This document shows positions 1 to 47,543 of a DNA stretch of 64,000 nucleotides, piece by piece; positions within the stretch are counted from its first letter, which is position 1; each line of letters begins with the position of its first letter. The notes beneath the pieces are model-generated. The model did no database searches. It had not been told where the DNA came from and saw nothing but the letters and a program-made list of their open reading frames with translations. Source of the stretch: Parcubacteria group bacterium (lineage in GTDB: Bacteria; Patescibacteriota; Minisyncoccia; 2-02-FULL-40-12). A program made the position numbers and the translations under genes. The stretch spans positions 7,948-71,947 of the forward strand of contig JACPLU010000006.1 in NCBI GenBank assembly GCA_016186395.1. The letters are read 5' to 3'.

Positions 1-177
1 GAAACCATTCAAAAAATGGCGGAAGTGCTTAACAATGAAGAAATATCTAAAATTTCTCACTCCGATATTCTGTGGGATGAAATCAAAGAAATTAAATCTG
101 TTGGTTTAGAAAAAACATATGATCTGGAAATAGAAGGAACCCACAATTTTGTTGCCAATGACTTTATTGTTCACAAT
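1..177 (+). mobile_element. C-terminal end of an intein embedded in dnaE (blocks F/G); splice junction HN|S at 172-180
   Basis: Translation LWDEIKEIKSVGLEKTYDLEIEGTHNFVANDFIVHN followed by S. This is the canonical intein C-terminal motif: His-Asn followed by a Ser/Cys/Thr at extein position +1. Confidence 0.7.
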
Positions 178-1128
178 TCCCATGCCGCATGTTACGGCCG
201 TGTTGCTTATCAAACCGCGTATATGAAAGCAAACTTTCCCATCGACTATATGTGTGCCGTTTTACGAGCAGAAGCTGGTAACATAGAAAGAATTGCCGAG
301 ATAATTGACGAATGCCAACGAATGAAAATAGAAGTTCTACCACCGGATATAAACGAAAGTTTTGATAATTTTTCTATCCCCTCCCTTCAGGAACAAAAGA
401 TACGTTTTGGTTTATTGGCAATCAAAAATGTAGGAGAAAACCTAATTAAATCTATAATTGAACAAAGAACGAGTAATGGAGAATTTAAATCAATAGAAGA
501 TTTGGTCAACCGCATTCAAAATAAAGACTTAAATAAAAAATCCCTAGAATCATTAATTCGTTGTGGAGCACTTGATCAGCTAGGTGAACGAAATCAGCTT
601 CTGGCAAATGTTGACCAGCTTTTAAATTACGGCAGAGAAACACAAAAAAACTCAAGCGGCGGACAAATTAGTCTTTTCGGCGCGAACGAAGAGGTCCCGT
701 TACCCTCAATTAGACTAGTGTCTGCGGAACCGGCATCTAAAAATGAACGTTTAACCTGGGAAAAAGAACTTTTAGGGTTATTTATTTCTGACCACCCAGT
801 TAAAGATTACCAACTAAAACTTCAACTTGATTTTGGCACAACTGATATTAGACTCGCTACCCAAAGACAAGGCTCAAATGTAAAAATAGGCGGACTGCTC
901 ACAAAACTTCAAAGAATAACGACTCGAACCGGCCAACTAATGCTTTTTGGCTGGCTGGAAGATTTAACGTCTAAAGTTGAGCTAGTTATATTCCCTAAAG
1001 TTATAGAAAAAAATCCTGCTGTATGGCAGGAAAACAAAATCATCGTAGTCAGAGGACGCGTTAACGAAAAAGACGGAATCCCAAAGATTATTTGCGATGA
1101 AGCAACATTAGTTGCGAGCTTAATTTAA
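1..1128 (+). CDS. dnaE: DNA polymerase III alpha subunit (DnaE), C-terminal part; the 5' end lies outside the window. The first ~59 codons belong to an intein.
   Basis: The reading frame is open from base 1. After the intein junction the protein reads SHAACYGRVAYQTAYMKANFPIDYMCAVL, which matches the conserved FNKSHSAAYALVSYQT region of DnaE. Confidence 0.8.
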   Translation, partial: ETIQKMAEVLNNEEISKISHSDILWDEIKEIKSVGLEKTYDLEIEGTHNFVANDFIVHNSHAACYGRVAYQTAYMKANFPIDYMCAVLRAEAGNIERIAEIIDECQRMKIEVLPPDINESFDNFSIPSLQEQKIRFGLLAIKNVGENLIKSIIEQRTSNGEFKSIEDLVNRIQNKDLNKKSLESLIRCGALDQLGERNQLLANVDQLLNYGRETQKNSSGGQISLFGANEEVPLPSIRLVSAEPASKNERLTWEKELLGLFISDHPVKDYQLKLQLDFGTTDIRLATQRQGSNVKIGGLLTKLQRITTRTGQLMLFGWLEDLTSKVELVIFPKVIEKNPAVWQENKIIVVRGRVNEKDGIPKIICDEATLVASLI

Positions 1129-1777: not shown

Positions 1778-3010
1778 ATGTCATCAGGAGATACAAATTC
1801 CAAGTCACAAACTACCAATTTAACTGATCATCGAGATATCGGCCAAGCACTTGATCTTTTTAGTTTTCACAGTGTTGCCCCAGGAACAGTATTTTGGCAT
1901 GGCAACGGTATGATTATTTGGCGGGAACTTGAAAAATATTTAAGAGAGAAATTAGATACTCTTGGCTATCAAGAAGTTTCAACTCCAATTATGGTAAAAA
2001 AAGAACTTTTTGAAAAATCTGGTCATTGGCAACACTACCGCGAAAACATGTTTACATTAGATGTTGATGACGAAATATATGTTTTAAAACCAATGAATTG
2101 TCCAGAAAGCACATTAATTTATTCGTCTAGAGTGCGATCCTATCGCGACTTACCAATTCGAATGTCAGAAATCACTGATAAAATTCACAGAAAAGAGTTA
2201 TCTGGAACTCTGGGTGGCTTACTTCGAGTAAGACAAATGACTCAAGACGATGCCCATCACTATGTTCGACCAGACCAAATTGGAGAAGAAGTTAGTAATT
2301 TACTCGATTTAATTAAAGAATTCTATTCACATTTCAACATGTCCCTATCTTTCAATCTAGCAACAAAACCGGACAATTCAATGGGCGATCCAAACATCTG
2401 GTCCGAAGCTGAAAAAGATCTAGAATCGGTATTGAAAAAAGCTAAAGTAAAATATCAAATTAAAGAAAAAGATGGAGCATTTTACGGACCCAAAGTTGAT
2501 ATCAACGCGACCGACTCTCAAAACAGAGAATGGACTATTGCAACCATTCAACTTGATTTTCAATTACCGGAAAGGTTTGAATTAGAGTATGTTGCCGAGG
2601 ATGGATCCAAAAAACGACCCGTTATAATCCACAGAGCTATCGCTGGAAGTTTCGAGAGATTTATTGGCGTATTACTTGAACACACTGAAGGTAAACTTCC
2701 AACCTGGCTTTCTCCAACTCAAGCAATTATTATGCCCATCAGTGAAAAACAAACCGACTATGCTAAAAAGGTTTTCAACAATTTTAAAAAAGAAGATATC
2801 CGCGTTCAATTCAACAACTCAAGCGAAACCATTTCCAAAAGAATTCGTGAAGCAGAACTGCAAAAGATTCCATATATTTTGGTTGTTGGCGAGAAAGAAG
2901 AAGACAACAGTAATATAAGTGTTAGACAACGTTCTGTTGGAGATATTGGGGCCATGCAAACCGAAGAAATTCTGAAAAAAATAAAAAAAGAAATAACCGA
3001 TAGGATCTAA
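1778..3010 (+). CDS. thrS: threonyl-tRNA synthetase, minimal form (catalytic core plus anticodon-binding domain; no N-terminal TGS/editing domains)
   Basis: Class II motifs and ThrRS-specific HRDIGQALDLF...APGTVFWHGNGMIIWRELE...GHWQHYRENMF. The ORF is only 410 aa and the upstream intergenic region is about 100 nt, so there is no room for an N-terminal domain. Confidence 0.85.
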   Translation: MSSGDTNSKSQTTNLTDHRDIGQALDLFSFHSVAPGTVFWHGNGMIIWRELEKYLREKLDTLGYQEVSTPIMVKKELFEKSGHWQHYRENMFTLDVDDEIYVLKPMNCPESTLIYSSRVRSYRDLPIRMSEITDKIHRKELSGTLGGLLRVRQMTQDDAHHYVRPDQIGEEVSNLLDLIKEFYSHFNMSLSFNLATKPDNSMGDPNIWSEAEKDLESVLKKAKVKYQIKEKDGAFYGPKVDINATDSQNREWTIATIQLDFQLPERFELEYVAEDGSKKRPVIIHRAIAGSFERFIGVLLEHTEGKLPTWLSPTQAIIMPISEKQTDYAKKVFNNFKKEDIRVQFNNSSETISKRIREAELQKIPYILVVGEKEEDNSNISVRQRSVGDIGAMQTEEILKKIKKEITDRI

Positions 3011-3758: not shown

Positions 3759-5555
3759 TTAATTAGTCACCAATTCTTTCTTCAACAACTCCTCTGCAAC
3801 TTGTGGATTGGCTTTGCCTTTGGTTTCTTTCATTACTTGACCGACAAGAAACTTCAAGGACTCCTGCTTACCTTTTTTATAATCTTCAACTGCTCTTTGA
3901 TTATTGGCAATAACATTTTTAACCGCGATTGTAAGCTCCCCCGAATCTGAAACCTGACCCAGATCTTTTTCTTTCATAATTTGTTCGGGATGCAATCCGG
4001 TTTCAGTCATTTCTTTTAATATAACCTTTGTGGCCGAAGAAGAAAGTTTTTTGTGGAAAAACATAACCATTAACTCGGCAAAGGCTTCCGGTTCAACTTT
4101 TATACCTGACAAATCTTCCAATTCGCTGGCATCTTTCATATTGAACAACACCGGAAATTCAGTAATTATAAAATTGGCCGCAAGCGCATGAAGCCTGCCC
4201 AGCAAATGTTTTTCATCAGAGAATTCTTTGACACTTCCACTTTTCAAATGTTCAACTTTAGCTTCTGAATCAAGTTCTGTGGCAACTTTTTCGTAATAAT
4301 CGCCCAAATGTTTCGCTTTGGTAAAAATTTCAATATCCCGCTCAGGCAGATTATACTGCTTTTTAAATCTATCACGCCTTTGCTGAGGTAGTTCTGGCAG
4401 ACTGACTAATAAACCGTCCACATCAATCTTAGTTGGCGGCACCCCCCCCTTTCTTTGAGAATCTTTTTCAATATTTGAGAATTCATTGGAAATAACCGCT
4501 ACGCTTTCATCACTAGCTTCTTTGAGAAGTTCACGAGAGAAAGAGGGGGGTCCTCGCCTTTGTAGCTTTTCGCTTATGCTCAAAAACAAAGGCGGGAGGT
4601 CCGGCTCCGGGAAATATCTATAATCGTGAGCTTCTTCTTTTGATCTTTGACTAACCGTTACACCTCTTACTTCGTCCCAACCTCTGGTTTCTTGAATAAC
4701 CCGTTCGCCACTATCTAAAAGCTCGCTTTGACGTTTAATTTCATATTCCACCGCTTGCATTGCTACTTTTATAGAGTTCAAATTTTTAATCTCCACTTTT
4801 GTACCTAATTTTTGATTTTTGATTTTTGATTTTTGATTTGAAGAAGTTAATATTTCGCTAAGCGAAATATTAACTTCGACACGCATTTGACCCTTTTCCA
4901 TATTTGCATCAGAAACGTTCAGATAACGTAAAATTAACTGAAATTCCTCGGCAAATTTTTTAACCTCGTTACCATTCTCTAAATCCGGTCTTGTTACTAA
5001 TTCCATTAACGGAACGCCGGCACGATTATAATCGACCAGCGAAGCTGGTCGCCCCGAGCCTGTCGAGAGGCTTTCATGCAAAAGCCTGCCCGCATCTTCT
5101 TCTAAATGAATGCGCTCAATTCTGATGCGCTTAACGTCTAAAGGCGAACGACTAAAGCCAGAGCTATCAATAGCTTTAGTCTTTAGACTTTCGTTGTTAG
5201 CCTTAGTCTTTAGACCTTGGTCATTAGACAGTATCTCTAAATAGCCGTCACGACATAACGGTTTTTGATACTGACTTATTTGATAGCCCTTTGGTAAATC
5301 AGGGTAAAAGTAGTTCTTTCTTTCAAAAAAAGATTCGTCTGCAATCTGGCAATGCAATGCCAAGCCAGCTTGAATCACTTTTTTCACAGCCTCCTGGTTT
5401 ATGACCGGCAATGTCCCTGGATGACCCATACAAATGGGACAAACATTAATATTTGGATGCTTTTCATCCGAATCATTTAAAGAATCGCAAAACATTTTAG
5501 TCTTGGTTTTAAGTTCAGCATGAATCTCCAGGCCGATTGTTGGTTTATAATTCAA
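3759..5555 (-). CDS. gatB: Asp/Glu-tRNA amidotransferase subunit B, expanded to 598 aa by four in-frame insertions
   Basis: N-terminus MNYKPTIGLEIHAEL...CPICMGHPGTLPVIN, plus RIERIHLEEDAGR and DYRYFPEPDLPP motifs. Confidence 0.9.
   Translation of the reverse strand: MNYKPTIGLEIHAELKTKTKMFCDSLNDSDEKHPNINVCPICMGHPGTLPVINQEAVKKVIQAGLALHCQIADESFFERKNYFYPDLPKGYQISQYQKPLCRDGYLEILSNDQGLKTKANNESLKTKAIDSSGFSRSPLDVKRIRIERIHLEEDAGRLLHESLSTGSGRPASLVDYNRAGVPLMELVTRPDLENGNEVKKFAEEFQLILRYLNVSDANMEKGQMRVEVNISLSEILTSSNQKSKIKNQKLGTKVEIKNLNSIKVAMQAVEYEIKRQSELLDSGERVIQETRGWDEVRGVTVSQRSKEEAHDYRYFPEPDLPPLFLSISEKLQRRGPPSFSRELLKEASDESVAVISNEFSNIEKDSQRKGGVPPTKIDVDGLLVSLPELPQQRRDRFKKQYNLPERDIEIFTKAKHLGDYYEKVATELDSEAKVEHLKSGSVKEFSDEKHLLGRLHALAANFIITEFPVLFNMKDASELEDLSGIKVEPEAFAELMVMFFHKKLSSSATKVILKEMTETGLHPEQIMKEKDLGQVSDSGELTIAVKNVIANNQRAVEDYKKGKQESLKFLVGQVMKETKGKANPQVAEELLKKELVTN
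5170..5232. repeat. cluster of short palindromic repeat units (TAGTCTTTAGAC) lying in-frame inside gatB
   Basis: tagtctttagac at 5176-5187, cttagtctttagacc at 5201-5215, cattagac at 5221-5228. On the minus strand these encode LKTKANNESLKTKA. Confidence 0.7.
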
Positions 5556-5660: not shown

Positions 5661-5687
5661 AACAAAAAAGCCCGGTGAACCGAGCTA
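5661..5687 (-). terminator. intrinsic terminator of the thyX-like gene
   Basis: On the minus strand: gctcggttcaccgggc hairpin followed by tttttt. Confidence 0.5.
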
Positions 5688-7337
5688 ACTAACGATTCTG
5701 TTCTCTTTTCTTCTTTGCGCCGCCTCTGACTCTGCACGACTCCAGAAATAGTCGTTATAATCTACAAATTCCATCAAAGGAGCAATTAATAAATCCTGCT
5801 CGCATAACAATCGATGTGCTTTTTGAATTAGTTTACGATACGAAGGATGTCCTTGAGGAATTGTCCGTAGTTCCATCAAATGAAACGCTTCTCTATGATT
5901 CATCCCCATATACCAACGAATGTTAAATAGAAAAAGAACTGCATATTGAGCAACTTTCTTTCCGACGCTAACCAACAACTTATCGTATAAATGATAAGAC
6001 CTTTCAACACAAGTTCGAAATTGTTTCCCCAATCCGGCTTCAATAACTTCTTCTGGTGTAACATATCCAAGGTAAGGATTTAAAAGTTGTCGTTGCTGAG
6101 TAAGCATTCTCTGTCGCTCAAGATCTCTATAAATCCCAAAATCACCTACAAAATCAAAGGTTATCGGATAACCAAATTCTAAACCACGGCCAGGTTTATT
6201 CCGTCTATTGCCCCTAACATCTTTATGCTGACAATATGCTTCCATAATCGCCTTTTTCTGATTAAAGGTGAGTAACTGACTGAAATCATAAAGTTCCCCC
6301 AGAGAAAGACAAGAAAAAGGATACAAAATATGCGCAATCGCCATAGATTCAAAATTCCAGTTACCTCCATAAAAAAGTTCTACTCGTTCTCTAGATACTG
6401 ATTCAATATGACCTAAATATCTATGGGCAATTTCTTCCATCTTTTCATTTACCGTTCGCAAATAAAAGTTAACATTCCCTCTTTTAACATAGTTTTCAAT
6501 AACCACCGATAATGCTCCTTTTGCTCTATCACCTAAATCTTGAAATTCAACCAAATCATGACTCTTTAATTTTGTAAGCATATTCTGATATCCTCTTCCA
6601 TTTCCGGATATACCAACATTTGTTAGAGTTGCTGCTGGCAAAAGTCCTCGAAGAGTATCGCAAGTTTTTGTTTTTATATCAGTTTTATACGTAACCGACC
6701 AAGCTCTTCTTTCTTTATCGTTATCCAACTCTTGAAGTTTATATGCCTTACTATCTCCCGCTCTTACAGCATACTCAGCCTCGTTCTCTGGTTTTAACCG
6801 CTTGAAATATTCTGACATGGGCTGAATTAGTTGAATATAAGTTTCAAGAACATAATCCAGTGTTGTCTCATATTCAGACAACAAACCGGCCTCAACAACT
6901 TCGACTGGTCTAAGATATCTCAACCTACCTTGACGATCTCTTTGGTCATAAACAACATAACGACTTGATTGCTCAATAGGCGAAAGACCGATACGGCAAT
7001 CTTCTATTTCCTTAGTTGCTAAATTAGAAACATTCTCAAGTGCCAAATGGGCATTCTCCAACTCACCAACCGAATCATCACCATAAGCGATTAAAACTCT
7101 TTCGACTAACTCGTTTAATTTGTCTAATTTTAATTTCCCTTTTTCATCTAAAAACTCCTTTAATAGACGAACTCTGGCTCCGCCTGCGGCTCTTGAGTAC
7201 CTGGCAAATACCGCCCCACCAACCCCATATAGGCTTGGCAAAAAAACAAAAATATCAGCACTAGGGTCACTAACATATTCTGCTAATATTTCTACTTCTT
7301 CTTTAGAAAAAATTGGGTCATACTCTGTACCTTGCAT
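5685..7337 (-). CDS. ThyX-family (Thy1 fold) protein, atypically long at 550 aa; possibly a tandem-duplicated fold with a diverged first active-site motif
   Basis: GELENAHLALENVSNLATKEIEDCRIGLSPIEQSSRY aligns to the ThyX [38 protein letters not shown] region. NGRGYQNML and AQYAVLFLFNIRWYMGMNHREAFHLMELRTIPQGHP align to the ThyX NARSLMNFLNLR / SHAQWEIQQYA region. The RHR triad is replaced by DCR. Confidence 0.5.
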   Translation of the reverse strand: MQGTEYDPIFSKEEVEILAEYVSDPSADIFVFLPSLYGVGGAVFARYSRAAGGARVRLLKEFLDEKGKLKLDKLNELVERVLIAYGDDSVGELENAHLALENVSNLATKEIEDCRIGLSPIEQSSRYVVYDQRDRQGRLRYLRPVEVVEAGLLSEYETTLDYVLETYIQLIQPMSEYFKRLKPENEAEYAVRAGDSKAYKLQELDNDKERRAWSVTYKTDIKTKTCDTLRGLLPAATLTNVGISGNGRGYQNMLTKLKSHDLVEFQDLGDRAKGALSVVIENYVKRGNVNFYLRTVNEKMEEIAHRYLGHIESVSRERVELFYGGNWNFESMAIAHILYPFSCLSLGELYDFSQLLTFNQKKAIMEAYCQHKDVRGNRRNKPGRGLEFGYPITFDFVGDFGIYRDLERQRMLTQQRQLLNPYLGYVTPEEVIEAGLGKQFRTCVERSYHLYDKLLVSVGKKVAQYAVLFLFNIRWYMGMNHREAFHLMELRTIPQGHPSYRKLIQKAHRLLCEQDLLIAPLMEFVDYNDYFWSRAESEAAQRRKENRIVS

Positions 7338-7359
7338 AACTTTTCTCCTTGTTTTTAAA

Positions 7360-7386
7360 ATACAAAAAAATCGGGTTTCCCCGATT
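7360..7386 (-). terminator. intrinsic terminator downstream of tmk
   Basis: On the minus strand: aatcggg-gaaa-cccgatt hairpin followed by a run of 7 T. Confidence 0.5.
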
Positions 7387-7395
7387 GTAGCAGAT

Positions 7396-8043
7396 CTATT
7401 TTTGTTTTAACAGCTCTAGTATTTTGTCACGAGCTTTTTGAAAAACATCTTCTGGGCTTAAAGTTGCATCAATCATAAACCAGCGTCTTGGTTCTTGTTG
7501 CAATTGGGCTAAATAGCCCTCCCGAACCACTTGGTGAAAGACTAAACTTTCTTGATCAAATTTATCCAACTCAACTTCCGACCTTCTTAAAATAGTTAAA
7601 CGTGGATCAATATCCAACAAAATTGTAAGACCGGGATATACTCTTTTACGAGCTATAGCCTCTATTGGAGTCATTGCTTCTAACGACAATCCTCTACCAT
7701 AATGCTGATAAGCAAAAGTAGAAGCAGTAAAACGATCACACAAAATTAAATATCCATCTTTTAATTTAGGCGAAATCACATCTACAATATGTTGGCATCT
7801 CCCGGCACAAAGAAGAAAAAATTCAGTCCAAGGATCTATATTTTCTGCGTCTCTAGATTTCAAAACTTGTCTAATTCTTTCCCCGAAATCCGTTCCTCCC
7901 GGTTCTCGCGTAGAAATTACTTTTATTCCAGAACTTAAAAAATATTCGTATAGCGAAGAAACTAGGGTTGTTTTTCCGCTTTTATCACCACCCTCAAAAG
8001 TAATAAATATTCCTGGATTTATCTCTGACATATACTTACTCAC
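7396..8043 (-). CDS. tmk: thymidylate kinase
   Basis: P-loop FITFEGGDKSGKTT, and REPGGT in the LID region. Confidence 0.85.
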   Translation of the reverse strand: MSKYMSEINPGIFITFEGGDKSGKTTLVSSLYEYFLSSGIKVISTREPGGTDFGERIRQVLKSRDAENIDPWTEFFLLCAGRCQHIVDVISPKLKDGYLILCDRFTASTFAYQHYGRGLSLEAMTPIEAIARKRVYPGLTILLDIDPRLTILRRSEVELDKFDQESLVFHQVVREGYLAQLQQEPRRWFMIDATLSPEDVFQKARDKILELLKQK

Positions 8044-8737
8044 TATCTAACTTTTCTTTTTTCCTACCAACTATCTCATAATCACTGTAAAGTCGTGGTA
8101 GCATAGAATAAGGCACCCAACTATTTTTCAAGGTTTCCAAATCTGTACCAGTTTGATACTTACCTTTTACTGAATAATCATCGTCTTCAAGAGGCCTTAC
8201 CTCATAAAATTTAATTTGACCAACACGCATTCCAGTCCTCAGAGGGATGTGATGGCGACAACTATTATTTGTAATCTCCATTGTCCAACGATTTACATAA
8301 CCAACATCACCCATTCCTGCACATTTACAAACTTCTATAAATGATCTACCCAGAGTTGAACGCGCTTTCATTTCAGAAGTGCAACAATTTCTTCCACCTA
8401 TAAATTCTTGTGTATGGGCCAATATTGTCTCACCTGGAGCAAGACATATTATTAAGTCTGATTCGATAAAACCATCTAAAGCAGTAATATTTAAATCCTG
8501 AATAAATTGGAAATAAGGAACTGCTCGTTGGGGTTCCTTTCCCCACACTCTTTCAATACTGGCCCTAGAGAAAGGATTGAAAATTGGTAAACCACCTTTT
8601 GAGTCTTGTTCCCTAAAATAATAATTACCCAAAGTTATATCATAACTGTTAGTACCTAGATTTCTTTCTTGAAAAGGATCAATGAGAATATTACCTAAAT
8701 TCATGTGTTTTAAAATATCCGGCCTTGATAAAAGCAT
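8036..8737 (-). CDS. dcd: dCTP deaminase / dUTPase-family protein
   Basis: ILKHMNLGNILIDPF...TNSYDITLGNYYF, LAPGETILAHTQE, GRSTLGRSFIEV and PLRTGMRVGQIKFYEV all align to E. coli Dcd. The gene overlaps tmk by 8 nt. Confidence 0.75.
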   Translation of the reverse strand: MLLSRPDILKHMNLGNILIDPFQERNLGTNSYDITLGNYYFREQDSKGGLPIFNPFSRASIERVWGKEPQRAVPYFQFIQDLNITALDGFIESDLIICLAPGETILAHTQEFIGGRNCCTSEMKARSTLGRSFIEVCKCAGMGDVGYVNRWTMEITNNSCRHHIPLRTGMRVGQIKFYEVRPLEDDDYSVKGKYQTGTDLETLKNSWVPYSMLPRLYSDYEIVGRKKEKLDSE

Positions 8738-9465: not shown

Positions 9466-9819
9466 TTATTTTAAACTATTAATTAAACCCTTAAGTTTTG
9501 AAACCACCAAACCACTCATCTGATATAAACTGTCAAAATCTTTACGATTTATAAAATCCAAATCTAAAGCTATATACAAACCAGAAATTACTTCTTCAAT
9601 TGATCCTAAAGACATTCGCAAAAATCTTTTGAACTCGGCATCTGATTTTTTATCGCTTCCTTCTGCTATATTCAATACTATAGAAACAGACACCCTACGA
9701 ATTTGACTTACTAATCCAAAAATTTCTTCTTTTGGAAAACGACTTGTAACTTTATAGATAGCAACAGTAAACTCTCTTGCCAACTTCCATACTTCAAGCT
9801 TTTCAAATCTATAGTACAT
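9466..9819 (-). CDS. four-helix-bundle protein of the 23S rRNA intervening-sequence / Avd family (TIGR02436-like)
   Basis: [51 protein letters not shown] is a textbook match to this family. The gene is flanked on both sides by the TAGTCTTTAGAC repeat clusters. Confidence 0.75.
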
Positions 9820-14715: not shown

Positions 14716-15696
14716 TCATTTTGAGTCATTATTACCCTTTAATTTTACCAGATTTTGTATATAAAAACAATGCTTAAAGCATAGTCTTGAGTGGATAATT
14801 TTAAGTTTTAATTTAATCGTTTCTATACTTTTATTTATTTCCACTCTTTTTAACATCCTTCTCTTAGTGGCTGTTCTCAACACTCTATGGTCTGAAAAGT
14901 GTACCCAACCAAGAAAATCAATCCCGGAATTTAAGGTTTTAATTGATACTTTATGAGGATGTAGCTGTAACCCAAGCCTATTTTGTAAAAAACTACTAAC
15001 TTGTGGCAATAAATCTAAAAGCCAATTCTTATTTTGTGAAAGAAAAACAAAATCATCAGCATAACGAATATAGTATTTAACTTTTAATTTGTGTTTTACA
15101 AACTGATCAAATTCATTCATATAGATATTTACTAATAATTGAGAAGTTAGATTACCAAGAGGCAGACCAATACCAAGATGAATTAAATAAAAACTAGAAA
15201 TAATTTCATTTAATAACTCTATAATATTTGGGTTTGAAATATATTTTTTTAAAATAGCAAGTAGAACTTGATGATCAATATTGGCAAAGAACTTTTTAAT
15301 ATCGCATTTTAAAACCCAGACTGTTTTTGTATTATTTTTTGATTCTTTATAAGAAAAATCTCTAAATCTATTAATTGCTTTATGAGTTCCTTTATTCAAT
15401 CTGGATGAATATGAGTCAGCAATAAATGTTTTGTCGAAAAATGGATAAAGTTGACGATAAATTGCGTGATGAAGTAATCTGTCTCTTACTTTAGCTTTAT
15501 GAATGCTTCTTGGTTTTGGATCAGAGATATTAAATGCTTGATACTCTCCGTGCTTGTAGATATGATTAGTTAAATCGTGATGTAAAGATAAAATATTATC
15601 CATTAGATTTAACTGAAATTCTTGAACATCTTTTCTTTTTCTTTTGCCTTTGATAAATTCTTTCCAGGCTTCAAGTAAATTTTCCAAACTAACCAT
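14716..15696 (-). CDS. diversity-generating retroelement (DGR) reverse transcriptase
   Basis: RT motifs are all present: LENLLEAWKEFIKGKRKRKDVQEFQLNL at the N-terminus, LKCDIKKFFANIDH, LPLGNLTSQLLVNIYMNEFD (the DGR-type [IL]GxxxSQ where group II introns have QGxxxSP), and YIRYADDFVFL. At 326 aa it has no maturase or endonuclease domain. Confidence 0.85.
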   Translation of the reverse strand: MVSLENLLEAWKEFIKGKRKRKDVQEFQLNLMDNILSLHHDLTNHIYKHGEYQAFNISDPKPRSIHKAKVRDRLLHHAIYRQLYPFFDKTFIADSYSSRLNKGTHKAINRFRDFSYKESKNNTKTVWVLKCDIKKFFANIDHQVLLAILKKYISNPNIIELLNEIISSFYLIHLGIGLPLGNLTSQLLVNIYMNEFDQFVKHKLKVKYYIRYADDFVFLSQNKNWLLDLLPQVSSFLQNRLGLQLHPHKVSIKTLNSGIDFLGWVHFSDHRVLRTATKRRMLKRVEINKSIETIKLKLKIIHSRLCFKHCFYIQNLVKLKGNNDSK

Positions 15697-17880: not shown

Positions 17881-18333
17881 CTATTTGTTATTCTTTATAT
17901 ATTTTGCCAGTAGCCACGAACTGGATTGAACCTTGCCTCCATCTCCTACATTAAATGCCATTTTGATACCATATTTCTTACAAACCGACTCCTCTGGTAT
18001 ATTACCCAGTTTTCGATCACCGCCATTTGCAAAAATATTAGGTTTTATCTTTTTCAATTCAGCACAAACACTCATATCTTTGGGGTTTTCTTTGTGACTG
18101 GTCAGCACAACTCTATCTACTCCGCTTACAGCTTCGATAATTTCTTTGCGTTCTTCTTCATTCATGAATACCTTCCCTTTCTTTTTCTTAAGCCAATTAT
18201 CGTTATTTAAAATAACCACAAGTTTAGTTCCCAACTTTTTTGCTTCTTGAATGAGACGAACGTGCCCAATATGAAGAGGATCCATCCCTCCTGATATGGC
18301 TACAACTAACGGATCTTTTAATTTATTTTTCAT
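17881..18333 (-). CDS. cytidylyltransferase-like nucleotidyltransferase (HIGH-motif family)
   Basis: VVAISGGMDPLHIGHVRLIQEAKKLG has the HxGH signature; the protein is 150 aa. Confidence 0.6.
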   Translation of the reverse strand: MKNKLKDPLVVAISGGMDPLHIGHVRLIQEAKKLGTKLVVILNNDNWLKKKKGKVFMNEEERKEIIEAVSGVDRVVLTSHKENPKDMSVCAELKKIKPNIFANGGDRKLGNIPEESVCKKYGIKMAFNVGDGGKVQSSSWLLAKYIKNNK

Positions 18334-23970: not shown

Positions 23971-25407
23971 TTGATTATGGGTCTAGTGCCATTGGAGCGA
24001 CTTGATTTGCGCAAATGTGACAGTGTTGGAGATATCGTAAAAGCTATGAGCAAGTGCTCATTTGGTGCACGCATGCTTGGCGAGGTTTGTCTGAAAGTTT
24101 TTGACTGGGTTCAAAGAGGAAAACATATCCGCATTGTATATGACGGAGAAAAACTTCTGGACATTTTTGACAGAATGAAGAATAACCGATGGATTGAGGA
24201 AGTTATCCATTCTGATCAGGTTGAGAATCTCTCCGGTTGGCACACCCACAAAACCATTGTCGTGGGACGGTATTCAGAAGCCGCTGACAAGCACATTAAC
24301 AAGCTGGGAGACGCTGTTTTTATTAACAAGGAAGAACTTTGTCGTCCCGGCCAGATCAAAGACGGATATTTCCCCGATGTTGTTTTTGCCGAGCCGACAT
24401 TCGTTATCCCCATCCTCTATTGTGCCTTAGATAATTGGCTTGAAGATCGGCGGCACTCTATTGAAGCTCTATTTACTGAACTAGAAAAAGATCAATTCGG
24501 ACACACAGTTGTTAGCGGTGGGTTAACCTTGGAAAAAATGGTCAAAGATCCCGACTGTTCGGTTTTTCTAACCTTGAGCGGAGCCATGACTATTGCTAAA
24601 ATGGGATTAGTTATTTGCGACATGGTTGATCTTGATATGATCCAGCTTATCTCTTCAACAGGAGCGTTGATGGCTCATGGACTGATAGAAAGTGTCGGAC
24701 TGCAGCACTTTAAGCATAACCCAGCACATGACGATCAATTCCTGGCGCAGCAGAAACTTAATCGGGTTACTGACACGCTTGAACCGGAGAAAAATTTCAC
24801 ACACATTGAGAAAATCGTGAATGAAATTTTATGGTCCTTTGAAAGCGGTGAGATAATTGGCCCGAGTGTTTTTCATCGACGCGTTGGTGAGTATCTCGCG
24901 CGAGAATTTACTACTGAACGTGGTGTTTTGAAGTCAGCGTTTGAAAAAAATGTTCCCGTTCTCTGCCCGGCCTTCGTAGATTCAGAAATCGGCAACGACC
25001 TATTTGCACACAACCAGCGGAGAATGCAGATAGGACAAAAACGGTTAATTGTAGATCCAGAACTTGATTCAGAGGTGCTTATTCGGATGATGATTCAAAC
25101 TTCGAAAGTTGGAATCTTCTCGGTGGGTGGCGGAGTGCCACGCAATAACACCCAAAACGTGGCTCCACTGATTGAGATCACAAATGAACGCCTTAGCTAC
25201 AATTGGCCTGAAAAAATGTACCTTTACGGATGCCGGATCGCTCCGGACGCTATGCATTATGGCCACCTTTCAGGTTGCACATACTCTGAAAATGCATCTT
25301 GGAGAAAAATGGACACCAAACTAGGAACATTTGCTGAAATCCGTGGCGATGCTACGCAGATTTGGCCATTTTTAGTCAAATATGTCATGGATTCAAAAAA
25401 TTTTTAA
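23971..25407 (+). CDS. deoxyhypusine synthase (DHS)-like protein with an N-terminal extension of about 100 aa
   Basis: TLSGAMTIAKMGLVICDMVDLDMIQLISSTGALMAHGLIE, SVGGGVPRNNTQNVAPLIEI and ASWRKMDTKLGTFAEIRGDAT align to the DHS NAD-binding and C-terminal regions. Confidence 0.75.
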   Translation: MIMGLVPLERLDLRKCDSVGDIVKAMSKCSFGARMLGEVCLKVFDWVQRGKHIRIVYDGEKLLDIFDRMKNNRWIEEVIHSDQVENLSGWHTHKTIVVGRYSEAADKHINKLGDAVFINKEELCRPGQIKDGYFPDVVFAEPTFVIPILYCALDNWLEDRRHSIEALFTELEKDQFGHTVVSGGLTLEKMVKDPDCSVFLTLSGAMTIAKMGLVICDMVDLDMIQLISSTGALMAHGLIESVGLQHFKHNPAHDDQFLAQQKLNRVTDTLEPEKNFTHIEKIVNEILWSFESGEIIGPSVFHRRVGEYLAREFTTERGVLKSAFEKNVPVLCPAFVDSEIGNDLFAHNQRRMQIGQKRLIVDPELDSEVLIRMMIQTSKVGIFSVGGGVPRNNTQNVAPLIEITNERLSYNWPEKMYLYGCRIAPDAMHYGHLSGCTYSENASWRKMDTKLGTFAEIRGDATQIWPFLVKYVMDSKNF

Positions 25408-37996: not shown

Positions 37997-38371
37997 TTAG
38001 AAAGCCTCATTAACCTCAAGTGCTCTGTTAATACCGTTTACAATTCCCACTGACCTGAGGCTTTGAGAACCAAGTGGTATAATTTGAAACTGAACTCCAT
38101 TAGATAAAGTAACTGGAACTGAAACACCGGGACAATTAGATATGGATTGTGGCGGTGTTTGCTGTTTTCTTACACTGTAAAGACAGGACTCAATTCCGCT
38201 ATCTGCCGCGAAGATTGACTCCAATGAATCCGATGATTCTTTAATCAGCTTCAACTTACCTATAAAAATAGTAGATAGCACAAAAACAATAGCCAACGCA
38301 ACGCTCACTAACAAAAGTGTATATATAATTGCTATACCTTGTGACTGGTTAAAAAATATTTTATCTTTCAA
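37997..38371 (-). CDS. minor pilin-like protein
   Basis: N-terminal hydrophobic helix; lies in the pseudopilin block. Confidence 0.45.
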   Translation of the reverse strand: MKDKIFFNQSQGIAIIYTLLLVSVALAIVFVLSTIFIGKLKLIKESSDSLESIFAADSGIESCLYSVRKQQTPPQSISNCPGVSVPVTLSNGVQFQIIPLGSQSLRSVGIVNGINRALEVNEAF

Positions 38372-38937
38372 TCTTTTACAAATCTTGGGGAAAGTGAAGT
38401 TTGTAAATCAATACTGACTTCATCTTTACCTATACCGGCACTAAATCCAATTAAAACTGTAATTCGCGGTTGAGCCAAATCATTATAAGCATTGTTTTTA
38501 ACACAGAAATTAAGCGACTTTACCTGAACGTCGTTAGAGGTTAGCTGACCAGTTAAACCACCAACGGTTCTGTTAATTACCTGACCGGCCAAAGAGTAAA
38601 CCACGGTTCCATTAATCGGATGCTGAAAGGTTAAAGAAGTTTGAGAAGAAGCACTAGTACAGGAAGTATCAGGAATTCTCTGAAAATTATCTTGACACGC
38701 AGGATCGGTTGATATGCAATTTGCAACTCTTAATTCTCTGCCCATGATCTCAAAAATAAATTGAGCATTTTCTTGTATCTTTTGTATATTCAATGATTTG
38801 CCTTGCGTTCTAATCATAGATACAAAAATCGCACCCGTTATCGTCACTAAAATCCCTAGTGCAAACATGCCTATTATAAGTTCAACAAGAGAAAATCCTT
38901 TACTGAATATGAAATATTTTTTGAAAATTCCTTTCAT
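38368..38937 (-). CDS. type IV pilin-like / pseudopilin
   Basis: Prepilin N-methylation motif GFSLVELIIGMFALGIL. Confidence 0.65.
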   Translation of the reverse strand: MKGIFKKYFIFSKGFSLVELIIGMFALGILVTITGAIFVSMIRTQGKSLNIQKIQENAQFIFEIMGRELRVANCISTDPACQDNFQRIPDTSCTSASSQTSLTFQHPINGTVVYSLAGQVINRTVGGLTGQLTSNDVQVKSLNFCVKNNAYNDLAQPRITVLIGFSAGIGKDEVSIDLQTSLSPRFVKD

Positions 38938-38951
38938 AGCTGTACTTTAAG

Positions 38952-39455
38952 TTACTTCCAATCAAAAAGCCTAAGTTCAGCGGGTATAGTTTTTATTCCG
39001 CCTCTAACCGGCCAACTGACCGAAACAACAATCTTCTTTTCAGATAAAGATACGTCGGTAATAGTAATTTTTCTTTTAAATTTCGTACTAGTCCCACTTG
39101 TGTATTGATAAATGCCATCCACAGAAAATTTTAAAGCTTGATTTGAATCTGGAGCTAAACTAAAACTATCCCATTGAACCTGCCAAACGCCGACTGGCAA
39201 AGCAGAACTAAAAGTTCCACCACTTATCCATTTAGAATCTCTAATATTACGAACTACTTCTAAACCTTCTTGGGCCAAATTTATGGCGACTGTTTGATCC
39301 TGAATAAGGGTGGTAATACGAGAATTTGAACTAACAAATAATGTTAGCCCCGTTGAGACAAAAGCGAGAATACCCAAAGCAACCAAAGTTTCAACTAAGG
39401 AAAACCCCACACTAAACTTTTGACTTTTGACTTTTGACTTTTGACTTTTTATCAT
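38952..39455 (-). CDS. type IV pilin-like / pseudopilin
   Basis: GFSLVETLVALGILAFV. The N-terminus is KSQKSKVKSQK, encoded by a (TTTTGAC)x4 tandem repeat at 39421-39448. Confidence 0.65.
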   Translation of the reverse strand: MIKSQKSKVKSQKFSVGFSLVETLVALGILAFVSTGLTLFVSSNSRITTLIQDQTVAINLAQEGLEVVRNIRDSKWISGGTFSSALPVGVWQVQWDSFSLAPDSNQALKFSVDGIYQYTSGTSTKFKRKITITDVSLSEKKIVVSVSWPVRGGIKTIPAELRLFDWK

Positions 39456-40075
39456 TGTACTTCCGCTCTTCCACTTGTGTAAACAAAAATAATTTTACAG
39501 TCAGTGGTATTTATATAGCATAATTTTATTTGAAGAGGAGCAATATTAAGATTAGAATTATTATTTATATAAATTTTTGGATCAGGCGGCTCAAAAAAAA
39601 CATCTAAAAATGAAACCGAAAAGTTAACATTTTTTTCTAGAATAACTAAGGTTTGAAAAATCGTGTCTATTCCTGCCTGATAATTGTGGTTTGTATTTAA
39701 ACAATTAAGACTTTCTGTTGACCCCTTATAAATCTGATAATGAGTTGTGTCCAAGTACCGCATCCCATAACCGCAAATTTGGTTTGCTGCAAAACCTCTT
39801 CCGGCAATAGCTAATTCTTGAATCCTCCTCAAATCAGCCTGAATAGCCACAGCAGAACGTCTTACGGCCTGAAGCCTCCTTGCTTTGCTTCCAAAAGCGG
39901 ATAACAAAAATCCTGTCATCATAACAGTAATGGTAGCGATTATAATCACCTCTAAAAGAGTGAACCCCGTATCATTTTTTTGAAAAAAGTGGTGCTGGGC
40001 AAGTCCCGCCGCACTTTTTAGCTCTTTTTTGAATAATTCTGGTTTATTAAATGAAGTACTCATAGCATTAAACAC
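39452..40075 (-). CDS. type IV pilin-like / pseudopilin
   Basis: GFTLLEVIIIATITVMM. Confidence 0.6.
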   Translation of the reverse strand: MFNAMSTSFNKPELFKKELKSAAGLAQHHFFQKNDTGFTLLEVIIIATITVMMTGFLLSAFGSKARRLQAVRRSAVAIQADLRRIQELAIAGRGFAANQICGYGMRYLDTTHYQIYKGSTESLNCLNTNHNYQAGIDTIFQTLVILEKNVNFSVSFLDVFFEPPDPKIYINNNSNLNIAPLQIKLCYINTTDCKIIFVYTSGRAEVQ

Positions 40076-40162
40076 CTAATTGTTTTAAAAACCAAAAAGG
40101 GGCAACTAAGTATAGTATACCCCTCCATAAACCAAAAAAGAATACCCAGATTAGATAAAATA

Positions 40163-40633
40163 CTAATACAAAAACATAGAATTTTGTTCTAATCTTACTT
40201 CTATTAAATCTCCAGGGTTAAGCATGTGTTTGTCTAGGAGCCCACCAGAAATTACCTCCCCATTAACATACACCCTCCATGAACGTCCGTGATTATCTAA
40301 AACATTATTCAATTTAACAATGGTGATTTTACCACTTTCGTCTGTAAAACCAAACTGGATTTTATTAATAGTCGTAGCTTCAATAATGGCCCCCAAGACT
40401 GAAACCGGTTGTTCAAGCTCTCGTTGGAACTCTCTAGTATGGTCACCAAAATTGAAAACCAAAGAAACATTGCTATTTCTATTACCAAATATGGGAGAAT
40501 AAGGCACTTTAAAATACACCAAAAATAAAAATATAAATATGGCTAAAATTAAATACCAGACCAATTTAGAATTGTCGGATTTGATATTTTTTTTCTGAGC
40601 TGTAAATTCTGCAATTACTTGATCTAGTTCCAT
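40163..40633 (-). CDS. hypothetical membrane-anchored protein in the pilus cluster
   Basis: One N-terminal transmembrane helix. Confidence 0.4.
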   Translation of the reverse strand: MELDQVIAEFTAQKKNIKSDNSKLVWYLILAIFIFLFLVYFKVPYSPIFGNRNSNVSLVFNFGDHTREFQRELEQPVSVLGAIIEATTINKIQFGFTDESGKITIVKLNNVLDNHGRSWRVYVNGEVISGGLLDKHMLNPGDLIEVRLEQNSMFLY

Positions 40634-40650
40634 GGATTTAAAAATTTAAG

Positions 40651-41427
40651 TTAAAATTGCGACAATAAACTGATTGGAAAAATTAAAAGGAAAATAGAGG
40701 CAATAACAATAAACGTACCTAGTGGCAGTGGTGTTTTGCGATCGGCTTTCCTAAAAATAAGCAACAATATTCCCACCAAAGCCCCAAGAAAAAAAGTTAA
40801 ATAAAATACGTTAATAATTCTGGGAAAACCGAACAAAAAACCAATCCAGATTGCTAACTTTACATCGCCAAACCCAATCCATTGTCCAGAAGAAATAAAG
40901 AAAATCATTCCTAAAATACCCGCAAAAAACAACACCCCCCAAAAAGAACTCAACCAACTACAACTTAAATTTGAACAAATTATGTCTAAACTAACTCCAA
41001 ACTTAGTTAAAAATATGGCTATTAATGAAACCACAAAACCACTTATAATTATTTTGTCTAGGATTAAAAAATTAAATAAATCGACAAATGCTACCACAAT
41101 CAACAAACTTATCAGTATCCAGCTGTAAAAAATACTTAGAGTACCCAGATTACCAATAAAAATTGCTGACAAAAGAAAAAGGCATGCAGTGATAATCTCT
41201 ATTATCGAATAGCTTTTTGAAAATCCCTTTTTACAGTACCGGCACTTAGCCCTAAGCCATATAAAACTAAATACCGGTATTAAATCTTTCCAAGATAAAC
41301 TATGGTTACAATTCTCACACCTTGATCTACTCCATACCGTATCTTTATTCCTAGGTAATCTATAAATCAAACAACCCAAATAACTACCCACCACAAGTCC
41401 AACCAATACGCTAACTATTAAAATCAT
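40651..41427 (-). CDS. pilD: prepilin peptidase (A24 family)
   Basis: Zinc ribbon CENCNHSLSWKDLIPVFSFIWLRAKCRYCKK, then a polytopic membrane domain. Confidence 0.8.
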   Translation of the reverse strand: MILIVSVLVGLVVGSYLGCLIYRLPRNKDTVWSRSRCENCNHSLSWKDLIPVFSFIWLRAKCRYCKKGFSKSYSIIEIITACLFLLSAIFIGNLGTLSIFYSWILISLLIVVAFVDLFNFLILDKIIISGFVVSLIAIFLTKFGVSLDIICSNLSCSWLSSFWGVLFFAGILGMIFFISSGQWIGFGDVKLAIWIGFLFGFPRIINVFYLTFFLGALVGILLLIFRKADRKTPLPLGTFIVIASIFLLIFPISLLSQF

Positions 41428-41436
41428 CTAACTAGT

Positions 41437-41991: not shown

Positions 41992-42084
41992 AAAAATGTG
42001 ACACAATAATTAACTTTTACAACTCACGAAGTTCGTCATAAAAACTAACTATTTATGGCTAATTAAAGTTTATTAAATTTAAGA

Positions 42085-43287: not shown

Positions 43288-43289
43288 CC

Positions 43290-44372: not shown

Positions 44373-44467
44373 TAATTCGTGAAACGTGAATCACGATGCT
44401 TTAAAAATGTGCGTGAACCAAGTTTCATGTTTTATGCCTCACGTTTTAAGTTTTATATTCCATATCT

Positions 44468-46213: not shown

Positions 46214-46251
46214 TTTCGTAAAATGCCGCTATAGCAGGCGTTAATTTTTGA

Positions 46252-46415: not shown

Positions 46416-46429
46416 TTTAGTCATTATGG

Positions 46430-46708: not shown

Positions 46709-46854
46709 CCCGTAGTAGAAATTCGAATAATGCTTTATGATTTTTAGAATCTGTTAACATTACCCGAACTCTTTTTGTTTTACATCTTTTAAACCCCGTA
46801 GTGATTTAGCATATGTAAATCCTTTCGAATTTTCACTACAGGATCCGTGAAAGT

Positions 46855-47531: not shown

Positions 47532-47543
47532 ATTCATCTACAA

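What the first reader, a model, noticed from the sequence alone, without database searches (positions are those of the whole stretch)
5685..8737. Long ThyX-family protein (550 aa) with a diverged RHR motif, clustered with tmk and dcd
The 550-aa protein has two stretches that align to ThyX: the ...SxxxxSxRY block and the NxRxLxxF...HxQWEIQ block. It is more than twice ThyX length. The first-motif RHR triad reads DCR.

It sits in an apparent operon with thymidylate kinase and a dCTP deaminase/dUTPase homolog, i.e. a dTMP-dTDP supply module. It could be a tandem-fused pseudo-dimeric ThyX or a ThyX-like enzyme with altered chemistry.
Basis: partly seen in the sequence, partly recalled or inferred. 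Interest (0 to 1): 0.55.

Follow-up and report, generated by a model that had tools for sequence, protein, structure and literature searches.

The report
Double-domain (tandem) ThyX thymidylate synthase
The 550-residue protein is a flavin-dependent thymidylate synthase made of two fused, diverged ThyX domains that each keep only half of the catalytic residues. It belongs to a very large, already annotated family, so it is ordinary as a gene but structurally uncharacterised.

Summary
ORF 5685-7337(-) encodes 550 aa. It lies downstream of tmk (7396-8043) and a dCTP-deaminase homolog (8036-8737).

The identical protein is already in NCBI as "FAD-dependent thymidylate synthase" from a Parcubacteria (CPR) MAG.

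Each half passes the Pfam Thy1 threshold on its own (51.9 and 46.2 bits, cut-off 24.8). The full AlphaFold model and the C-half model both hit only ThyX structures in the PDB.

The catalytic residues are split between the domains:
- The N-domain keeps SxxxxSxRY (S124, R126, Y127), but its RHR reads DCR.
- The C-domain keeps R-x-R (RQR here, RHR in most relatives) and the R174 equivalent (R491), but has no SxRY.
- This complementary pattern holds in 133 diverse representatives.

In canonical ThyX these two residue sets come from different subunits of one active site. I therefore infer that a homodimer forms a pseudo-tetramer with two complete sites instead of four.

The family is very large (936 cluster representatives at E<=1e-30). 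It is found in CPR bacteria, Chloroflexota and Actinomycetota, in MAGs labelled Acidobacteriota, and on at least one archaeal contig.

tmk or dcd neighbours recur in about a third of related loci. I found no evidence for altered chemistry. Interest is modest.

The parts
5685..7337 (-). Long (tandem) thyX gene, 550 aa plus stop codon
   Evidence: ORF. Pfam Thy1 at E=6.4e-27 with two stretches. The identical protein P0001 is named FAD-dependent thymidylate synthase by NCBI, from a Parcubacteria MAG.
6453..7337 (-). N-terminal ThyX domain (about residues 1-295). It keeps the dUMP-binding SxxxxSxRY block.
   Evidence: Scores 51.9 bits on Pfam Thy1 on its own, residues 68-260 to profile 32-169. hhalign to a canonical ThyX profile covers 1-298 at E=5e-3.
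6993..7001 (-). D113-C114-R115, the N-domain counterpart of the RHR triad (degenerate)
   Evidence: Register from hhalign. In 118 relatives: D 118/118 at 113; R 56 and C 44 at 114; R 118/118 at 115. Translation checked.
6957..6983 (-). S119-P-I-E-Q-S124-S-R126-Y127, matching T. maritima S83...S88-x-R90-Y91 (dUMP binding and lid tyrosine)
   Evidence: S124 and R126 are conserved in 133/133 and Y127 in 130/133 diverse representatives. Residue roles are from PMC6514825.
7071..7082 (-). G86-D-D-S89, counterpart of the canonical GH(E)T/S block (T. maritima H53-T55)
   Evidence: Mapping. G86 and S89 are conserved in 133/133 and D87 in 129/133 representatives.
5688..6452 (-). C-terminal ThyX domain (about residues 296-550). 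It keeps the RHR-type triad and the R174 equivalent but has no SxRY.
   Evidence: Scores 46.2 bits on Pfam Thy1 on its own, residues 392-513 to profile 59-187. hhalign covers 314-528 at E=5e-4. The isolated C-half model (pLDDT 65.6) hits only ThyX structures over about 220 columns.
6108..6116 (-). R408-Q409-R410, the functional RHR-type triad of the C-domain (FAD phosphate/ribityl and dUMP contacts)
   Evidence: R408 133/133, His at 409 in 127/133 (Gln in this window), R410 132/133. Translation checked.
5865..5900 (-). N480-H-R482-...-H486-...-R491, matching T. maritima N163, R165, N169 and R174
   Evidence: Mapping. R491 132/133, R482 129/133, N480 121/133.
5688..5768 (-). Conserved C-terminal extension FVDYNDYFWSRAESEAAQRRKENRIVS (residues 524-550). 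Canonical ThyX has no counterpart.
   Evidence: Invariant D526, Y530, R534, S537, E538, Q541 and R542 in A1. R534 is conserved in 130/133 diverse representatives. Predicted helix at 534-549. Its role is unknown.
7369..7386 (-). Terminator-like hairpin followed by a T-run, between tmk and thyX
   Evidence: A consensus match only, and the count in the region is no higher than in shuffles.
5669..5686 (-). Terminator-like hairpin at the 3' end of thyX
7396..8043 (-). tmk, dTMP kinase (215 aa)
   Evidence: TIGR00041 at 147.9 bits (cut-off 83.25) and Pfam Thymidylate_kin at 1e-43.
8036..8737 (-). dcd, a dCTP deaminase-family protein (233 aa), probably the dUMP-forming bifunctional type
   Evidence: Pfam DCD at 101 bits. 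TIGR02274 at 73.1 bits is below its 92.8 cut-off. The best solved relative is the M. jannaschii bifunctional dCTP deaminase/dUTP diphosphatase 1ogh, E=4e-10, aligned over the full length.

Best explanation
The gene encodes a 'long' flavin-dependent thymidylate synthase: two ThyX (Thy1) domains fused in one 550-aa chain by an old duplication.

The two domains have degenerated in complementary ways:
- The N-domain keeps the residues that canonical ThyX contributes from 'subunit C' of an active site: S124, R126 and the lid tyrosine Y127.
- The C-domain keeps the residues contributed from 'subunit A': the R-x-R triad R408/R410, which binds FAD and dUMP, and R491, the equivalent of T. maritima R174.

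I infer that two chains associate into a pseudo-tetramer of four ThyX domains. That assembly would have only two complete FAD/dUMP sites, each built across an N-domain and a C-domain. The other two symmetry-related sites would be dead.

The enzyme would convert dUMP to dTMP with methylene-tetrahydrofolate, FAD and NAD(P)H.

The neighbouring Dcd would supply dUMP from dCTP. It is most similar to the dUMP-forming bifunctional enzymes. Tmk would then take dTMP to dTDP.

Shown here: the two Thy1 domains, the ThyX fold, the split of conserved residues, the size of the family, and the recurrent tmk/dcd neighbours.

Inferred: the oligomeric state, the number of active sites, thymidylate synthase activity, and the bifunctionality of Dcd.
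For: Two domains:
- Each half passes the Pfam Thy1 gathering score by itself (51.9 and 46.2 bits, cut-off 24.8).
- A family profile matches the C-terminal part of solved ThyX twice, once per half.
- hhalign aligns each half to the full length of a T. maritima-type ThyX profile (E=5e-3 and 5e-4).
- The secondary-structure order repeats in both halves of the model (pLDDT 87, pTM 0.89).
- All top Foldseek PDB hits for the full model and for the C-half model are ThyX.

Complementary residues in 133 representatives that are under 50% identical to each other:
- N-domain: S124 133/133, R126 133/133, Y127 130/133.
- Equivalent C-domain positions are unconserved (L/P/D..., T/S/G..., P/T/C...).
- C-domain: R408 133/133, His409 127/133, R410 132/133, R491 132/133.
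- N-domain position 113 is D67/R25/W24.
- The N-domain R174-equivalent is variable.

Subunit origin of these residues in canonical ThyX: RHR and Mtb R199 come from subunit A; S105, R107 and Y108 come from subunit C (PMC6514825).

Pathway context:
- tmk occurs in 13 and dcd in 14 of 82 related loci.
- A distant member sits next to a DCD gene and a thymidylate kinase gene, and another sits near folD.
- No ThyA, DHFR or second Thy1 hit appears in any window ORF of 150 aa or more.

The exact protein is annotated as FAD-dependent thymidylate synthase.
Against: - The equivalog model TIGR02170 scores only 33.7 bits against a cut-off of 87.9.
- The hhalign probabilities are low (7% and 33%). The two halves are not significantly similar to each other (E=0.17). 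The residue register therefore rests on motif matches and fold rather than on strong statistics.
- I had no access to model coordinates, so the relative placement of the two domains and the two-site geometry are untested.
- In some subfamilies the N-domain keeps more. Position 113 is Arg in 25/133, and position 256 is Lys or Arg in 99/133. The 'dead' sites may therefore not be fully dead everywhere.
- This window's protein has Gln where 127/133 representatives have the His of RHR.
- The isolated C-half model is of low confidence (pLDDT 65.6).
- No enzymatic data exist for this protein.
- No folate-cycle gene was seen in the window.
Confidence: 0.75

Rival explanations
1. A ThyX-derived enzyme with a different substrate or chemistry. 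Examples would be a UMP or dCMP C5-methylase or hydroxymethylase, or a nucleic-acid uracil methylase. On this reading it is not the cell's thymidylate synthase.
For: - It falls well below the TIGR02170 equivalog cut-off.
- The contiguous ThyX motif is not intact in either domain.
- H53 is replaced by Asp in the N-domain, and the RHR His by Gln in this protein.
- A strongly conserved, Arg-rich C-terminal extension has no counterpart in canonical ThyX.
Against: - Taken together, the two domains keep the dUMP and FAD ligands named for canonical ThyX.
- tmk and dcd neighbours recur across distant subfamilies.
- No other thymidylate synthase is present in the 64-kb window.
- The family is very large and sits in housekeeping neighbourhoods (nusG-rplK...gatB), as expected for an essential enzyme.
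Confidence: 0.1
2. A single ThyX domain enlarged by a long insertion or an unrelated extra domain, not a duplication.
For: The two halves are not detectably similar to each other by hhalign (E=0.17). NCBIfam reports only one strong stretch.
Against: - Each half passes Pfam Thy1 on its own.
- Both halves match the same C-terminal region of solved ThyX.
- The C-half alone folds to a ThyX-like model aligned over about 220 columns.
- Both halves carry their own N-x-R block (N246/R248 and N480/R482).
Confidence: 0.02
3. A tandem ThyX in which all four sites of the dimer still work. The N-domain 'A-role' residues would be replaced by other residues, for example K256 or the C-terminal Arg-rich helix.
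For: - Lys or Arg at position 256 in 99/133 representatives, and Arg at 113 in 25/133.
- R534 in the C-terminal extension is conserved in 130/133.
- N246/R248 are retained in many N-domains.
Against: The C-domain never has the S88/R90/Y91 equivalents. A site that needs the C-domain in the 'C role' therefore lacks its uracil and phosphate ligands and the lid tyrosine in every member examined.
Confidence: 0.1

Closest known systems
Canonical homotetrameric ThyX / FDTS (T. maritima TM0449, PDB 1o26; M. tuberculosis, 2af6; PBCV-1, 4fzb)
   Same: - The same fold for each half.
- The same Pfam family.
- The same set of dUMP and FAD ligands when both halves are taken together.
- The expected reaction is the same.
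   Different: - About 220-250 aa against 550 aa.
- The canonical enzyme has one contiguous RHRxxSxxxxSxRY motif per subunit and four identical composite sites.
- Here the motif is split: the SxRY part is only in the N-domain, and the R-x-R part plus R174 only in the C-domain.
- That predicts a dimer with two sites.
- There is an extra conserved C-terminal helix.
- It scores below the TIGR02170 cut-off.
The 'long ThyX' family annotated as FAD-dependent thymidylate synthase. Sources include Patescibacteria/CPR, Chloroflexota (Dehalococcoidia), Acidimicrobiia/Actinomycetota, MAGs labelled Acidobacteriota, Woesearchaeota and other groups by their submitters, and one contig with archaeal neighbour genes.
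   Same: - The window protein is a full-length member: 41-72% identity to CPR members.
- The same complementary motif pattern holds in 133 representatives.
- Lengths are similar, about 510-600 aa.
   Different: - The window clade has Gln instead of His in the C-domain RHR (3/133 representatives) and Cys at position 114.
- I found no solved structure.
- No paper describing the two-domain architecture turned up in the library searched.
Chlamydia trachomatis ThyX (CT632). From memory it is about 529 aa and was shown biochemically to be a flavin-dependent thymidylate synthase (Griffin et al., J Biol Chem 2005).
   Same: Similar length, if my recollection is right. Chlamydial ThyX is reported as too divergent to include in ThyX trees (PMC6171736). 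That would fit a long, two-domain form.
   Different: Not tested here. I could not obtain the chlamydial sequence or the paper. No chlamydial protein appeared among the listed hits. Treat this as a lead only.
M. jannaschii bifunctional dCTP deaminase/dUTP diphosphatase (PDB 1ogh), compared with the neighbouring dcd
   Same: Best solved relative, aligned over residues 1-191, E=4e-10. The catalytic Glu context is conserved (ITLEI in the structure, WTMEI here).
   Different: The window protein has about 30 extra residues and scores below the TIGR02274 cut-off. Bifunctionality is inferred, not shown.

Membership tests
ThyX / Thy1 (PF02511, flavin-dependent thymidylate synthase) | Profile match above Pfam's gathering score | tested here: met
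   95 bits for the whole protein. 51.9 bits for the N-half and 46.2 bits for the C-half, each alone, against a cut-off of 24.8.
ThyX / Thy1 (PF02511, flavin-dependent thymidylate synthase) | ThyX fold | tested here: met
   All top 50 Foldseek PDB hits are ThyX for the full model (TM normalised to target about 0.55). The same holds for the C-half model (about 220 aligned columns).
ThyX / Thy1 (PF02511, flavin-dependent thymidylate synthase) | Contiguous ThyX motif RHRxxSxxxxSxR(Y) within one domain | tested here: not met
   The N-domain reads DCRIGLSPIEQSSRY and the C-domain reads RQRMLTQQRQLLNP. The motif is complete only when the two domains are combined.
ThyX / Thy1 (PF02511, flavin-dependent thymidylate synthase) | Arginine equivalent to T. 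maritima R174 / Mtb R199 (dUMP contact) | tested here: met
   R491 in the C-domain, conserved in 132/133 representatives. It is absent or variable in the N-domain.
ThyX / Thy1 (PF02511, flavin-dependent thymidylate synthase) | NCBIfam equivalog TIGR02170 score above its cut-off | tested here: not met
   33.7 bits against 87.9.
ThyX / Thy1 (PF02511, flavin-dependent thymidylate synthase) | Bound FAD and dUMP-to-dTMP activity with CH2-H4folate and NAD(P)H | not testable with these tools
   Needs biochemistry or genetic complementation.
ThyX / Thy1 (PF02511, flavin-dependent thymidylate synthase) | Homotetramer with four composite active sites | not testable with these tools
   Only monomer models were available and no coordinates were returned. 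The residue split predicts a dimer with two sites.
Long tandem-domain ThyX family | About 510-600 aa with two Thy1 domains. SxRY is conserved only in the N-domain. RHR and the R174 equivalent are conserved only in the C-domain. | tested here: met
   The window protein deviates only at Q409, where the family has His.
Long tandem-domain ThyX family | Homology to the biochemically characterised chlamydial ThyX | not tested
   The sequence was not obtainable with the tools. This rests on recollection only.
dTMP kinase (Tmk) | TIGR00041 equivalog score above its cut-off | tested here: met
   147.9 bits against 83.25.
dCTP deaminase family (Dcd / Dcd-Dut) | DCD domain, and the equivalog model TIGR02274 | tested here: inconclusive
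   Pfam DCD at 101 bits is met. TIGR02274 at 73.1 bits is below 92.8. The closest solved proteins are dUMP-forming bifunctional enzymes.
ThyA (classical thymidylate synthase) elsewhere in the window | Any ORF of 150 aa or more matching the Pfam thymidylate synthase, DHFR or SHMT families | tested here: not met
   None among the 50 ORFs of 150 aa or more. The rest of the genome was not available.

The most novel reading that the evidence does not exclude
The long ThyX family is an obligate 'half-of-sites by design' enzyme. After an ancient tandem duplication, the two domains divided the catalytic residues between them. A dimer of four ThyX domains would then carry two composite sites and two vestigial pockets. 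A conserved Arg-rich C-terminal helix found only in this form would take part in substrate or cofactor binding. I found no description of this architecture in the paper library searched, and it has no solved structure. If it is right, a very large share of thymidylate synthases in CPR bacteria, Chloroflexota and Actinomycetota, and probably in DPANN-type archaea, would differ in quaternary logic from the textbook ThyX tetramer.
Probability: 0.55. Interest if true: 0.45.

Novelty: new member of a known kind. Interest (0 to 1): 0.3.

Why it matters
ThyX is the only de novo thymidylate source in many bacteria and is a drug target. All of its structural and mechanistic knowledge comes from roughly 220-250-aa homotetramers.

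This window shows a routine example of a very common but structurally uncharacterised double-domain form. In it, the signature motif used to recognise ThyX is split across two domains.

This explains two things. Equivalog models miss these proteins (33.7 bits against 87.9). A motif reader sees a 'broken' RHR. It also gives a concrete, testable prediction: one FAD and one dUMP per 550-aa chain.

For genome annotation of CPR organisms, it supports calling this gene the thymidylate synthase rather than a pseudo-enzyme.

Tried and rejected
1. Direct phmmer of the protein against PDB sequences found no ThyX. Only the family profile gave weak ThyX hits.
2. hhalign of the N-half against the C-half was not significant (E=0.17). 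The duplication cannot be shown from internal sequence similarity alone.
3. I tried to find out whether chlamydial ThyX is the same architecture.
- Five literature searches and several paper look-ups found no statement on length or domains.
- The AFDB fold library was not available.
- Cluster look-ups of ten representatives of 524-531 aa returned no organism names.
- The third homology search, from a distant subfamily member, showed Chloroflexi and Acidimicrobiia but no Chlamydiae.
4. A model of the C-half alone came out at low confidence (pLDDT 65.6). It still retrieved only ThyX, but I do not use it for residue geometry.
5. I considered a single domain with an insertion and rejected it.
6. 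I considered a pseudo-enzyme and rejected it, because 47 positions are at least 90% conserved across 133 diverse representatives, including all the key arginines.
7. A promoter and terminator scan gave counts no higher than shuffles. I report the two hairpins only because of where they sit.
Full report
**What is there**

The ORF list reproduces the finding exactly:
- a 550-aa ORF at 5685-7337 on the minus strand;
- upstream on the same strand, a 215-aa ORF at 7396-8043;
- a 233-aa ORF at 8036-8737.

Further upstream lie rplK, a 23S-rRNA-IVS protein gene, nusG and secE. gatB follows downstream. The window has about 37% G+C.

Its gene content points to a small-genome CPR bacterium:
- housekeeping genes and a type IV pilus cluster;
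- no hits to thymidylate synthase ThyA, DHFR or SHMT.

The 550-aa protein is identical to a database entry that NCBI names [quoted passage not shown].

**Family assignment**

- Pfam Thy1 (PF02511) matches the 550-aa protein at E=6.4e-27 with two matched stretches.
- The stricter NCBIfam equivalog TIGR02170 reaches only 33.7 bits against a cut-off of 87.9.
- Tmk passes TIGR00041 (147.9 bits, cut-off 83.25).
- The third protein passes Pfam DCD but not TIGR02274.
- Its best solved relative is the dUMP-forming bifunctional dCTP deaminase/dUTP diphosphatase of M. jannaschii (1ogh, E=4e-10, full length). The next hits carry dCTP-deaminase names. From my own knowledge, not tested here, several of these are M. 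tuberculosis bifunctional enzymes.

**Two domains**

Cut at residue 300, each half passes the Thy1 gathering score of 24.8 bits on its own:
- N-half: 51.9 bits, residues 68-260 against profile positions 32-169.
- C-half: 46.2 bits, residues 392-513 against profile positions 59-187.

Other lines agree:
- A profile of 32 family members hits the same C-terminal region of solved ThyX twice. Profile positions 219-279 match Mtb ThyX 164-225, and 432-522 match PBCV-1 ThyX 133-224.
- To build a canonical ThyX profile I recalled the T. maritima sequence. It proved 100% identical to the database and PDB entry.
- hhalign against that profile aligns the N-half (1-298) and the C-half (314-528) each to the whole of ThyX, at E=5e-3 and 5e-4.
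- The AlphaFold model of the full chain is confident (pLDDT 87, pTM 0.89). It shows the same order of strands and helices twice.
- Its top 50 PDB matches are all ThyX.
- A model of the C-half alone is of low confidence (pLDDT 65.6), yet it retrieves only ThyX, aligned over about 220 columns.

The two halves are not significantly similar to each other (E=0.17). The duplication is therefore old.

**How the catalytic residues are distributed**

I mapped T. maritima numbering onto both halves. I then counted residues in 118 close relatives and in 133 cluster representatives less than 50% identical to each other.

| T. maritima residue | N-domain | C-domain |
|---|---|---|
| R78 | D113 (D in all 118 relatives; D67/R25/W24 in the 133) | R408 (133/133) |
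| H79 | C114 (variable) | Q409 in this window; His in 127/133 |
| R80 | R115 (133/133) | R410 (132/133) |
| S88 | S124 (133/133) | L418 (unconserved) |
| R90 | R126 (133/133) | N420 (unconserved) |
| Y91 | Y127 (130/133) | P421 (unconserved) |
| R165 | R248 (R68/Q63) | R482 (129/133) |
| R174 | no conserved Arg (variable K256, or L257) | R491 (132/133) |

So neither domain has an intact RHRxxSxxxxSxRY motif. Together they have exactly one.

**Why that split is meaningful**

A review of ThyX structures describes each canonical active site as built from three subunits (PMC6514825):
- The RHR triad and Mtb R199 (T. maritima R174) come from subunit A.
- S71 and R190 come from subunit B.
- R87, S105, R107 and the lid tyrosine Y108 come from subunit C.

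The C-domain therefore keeps the 'A-role' residues and the N-domain keeps the 'C-role' residues.

The simplest reading is that two chains form a pseudo-tetramer of four ThyX domains. Only the two sites with a C-domain in the A role and an N-domain in the C role are complete. The two reciprocal sites lack the uracil and phosphate ligands and the lid tyrosine in every member examined.

This step is inference. The tools returned no coordinates, so I could not check the placement of the two domains. I also could not settle which domain plays the B role. S89 of the N-domain is invariant, but R482 of the C-domain is better conserved than R248 of the N-domain.

**Function and context**

The family is very large and widespread.
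- A profile search of 1.84 billion cluster representatives found 4870 at E<=1e-3, 3052 at E<=1e-10 and 936 at E<=1e-30. Among the 150 best listed, most are 510-600 aa.
- Members come from many CPR lineages and from MAGs that their submitters label Acidobacteriota, Woesearchaeota, Gammaproteobacteria and other groups.
- One member lies on a contig with TBP, L21e, eIF-1A and TFIIE genes, which is clearly archaeal.
- A second large subfamily comes from Dehalococcoidia/Chloroflexota and Acidimicrobiia/Actinomycetota.

In 82 related loci:
- gatB, rplK and nusG are frequent neighbours.
- tmk lies within 6 kb in 13 loci and dcd in 14.
- A distant subfamily member also sits beside a DCD gene and a thymidylate kinase gene, and another lies four genes from folD.
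- No separate short ThyX occurs in these loci.

This context, the conservation of 47 positions at 90% or more across the family, and the absence of another thymidylate synthase in the window all support an ordinary thymidylate synthase role. The local pathway would be dCTP to dUMP (Dcd), dUMP to dTMP (ThyX), then dTMP to dTDP (Tmk).

In this window dcd and tmk overlap by 8 nt. A hairpin with a T-run lies in the 58-nt gap before thyX, and thyX has its own AAGGAG ribosome-binding site. thyX may therefore be transcribed partly on its own.

**Peculiarities that remain**

1. This protein and its closest relatives have Gln at the His of the C-domain RHR. Only 3 of 133 representatives share this. A Gln could still hydrogen-bond the FAD phosphate, but that is untested.
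2. The family has a conserved C-terminal extension, FVDYNDYxWSRAESEAxQRRKE. R534 is conserved in 130/133 representatives. Canonical ThyX has no counterpart, and its role is unknown.
3. The canonical H53 is Asp (the GDDS block) in the N-domain in 129/133 representatives.

**Comparison with what is known, and novelty**

The fold, family and expected reaction are those of ThyX. The gene is already annotated as such in public databases, and Pfam recognises both domains.

I found no solved structure of the long form. No paper in the searchable library describes the two-domain architecture or the split motif.

From memory, C. trachomatis ThyX is about 529 aa and was shown to be an active flavin-dependent thymidylate synthase. 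One paper notes that chlamydial ThyX is too divergent for ThyX trees (PMC6171736). I could not obtain that sequence, so the link is a lead and not a result.

I classify the finding as a new member of a known kind. The gene is ordinary. The inferred two-site pseudo-tetramer is a modestly interesting, testable structural point.

**Verdict**

- Observation: confirmed.
- Altered chemistry: not supported.
- Interest: 0.3.

Noticed in passing
window 16-1128 (+): The window starts inside a dnaE-like gene. The ORF carries the C-terminal block of an intein splicing domain (residues 15-54), followed by the HHH_6 and OB-fold domains of the DNA polymerase III alpha subunit.
   Followed up: no
window 14716-15696 (-): A 326-aa reverse transcriptase ORF (RVT_1, 2e-25) lies next to gyrB. 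I did not examine whether it belongs to a group II intron, a retron or a diversity-generating element.
   Followed up: no
window 23971-25407 (+): A 478-aa deoxyhypusine-synthase-like protein. The DS domain covers only residues 186-471, leaving an N-terminal part of about 185 aa with no match.
   Followed up: no
window 1778-3010 (+): A class II tRNA synthetase of only 410 aa, probably ThrRS. It has the catalytic core and the anticodon-binding domain but no N-terminal editing domains.
   Followed up: no
window 3759-5555 (-): GatB is unusually long at 598 aa. About 130 residues between the GatB_N and GatB_Yqey domains have no match.
   Followed up: no
window 9466-9819 (-): A gene for a 23S-rRNA-intervening-sequence (four-helix-bundle) protein is inserted between nusG and rplK.
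   Followed up: no
window 17881-18333 (-): A 150-aa cytidylyltransferase-like protein with a weak FAD_syn match. It could be an FMN adenylyltransferase supplying FAD.
   Followed up: no
window 5688-5768 (-): The long-ThyX family has a conserved Arg-rich C-terminal extension (residues 524-550). R534 is conserved in 130/133 diverse representatives. Canonical ThyX has no counterpart and the role is unknown.
   Followed up: partly
window 6111-6113 (-), residue Q409: This protein and its two or three closest relatives have Gln where 127 of 133 family representatives have the His of the C-domain RHR triad.
   Followed up: partly
L081 6001-7587; the unnamed JGI contigs; L082 5001-6632: Long ThyX also occurs on an archaeal contig that carries TBP, L21e, eIF-1A and TFIIE genes (L081). 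A distant member lies beside a 378-aa tandem DCD gene and a thymidylate kinase gene (JGI contigs). A Chloroflexota/Actinomycetota-type member lies four genes from folD on a 1.5-Mb contig (L082).
   Followed up: partly
window 38368-49361: A type IV pilus gene cluster: pilins with the N-methylation motif, prepilin peptidase, PilC-like T2SSF, two T2SSE ATPases, PilO and PilM.
   Followed up: no
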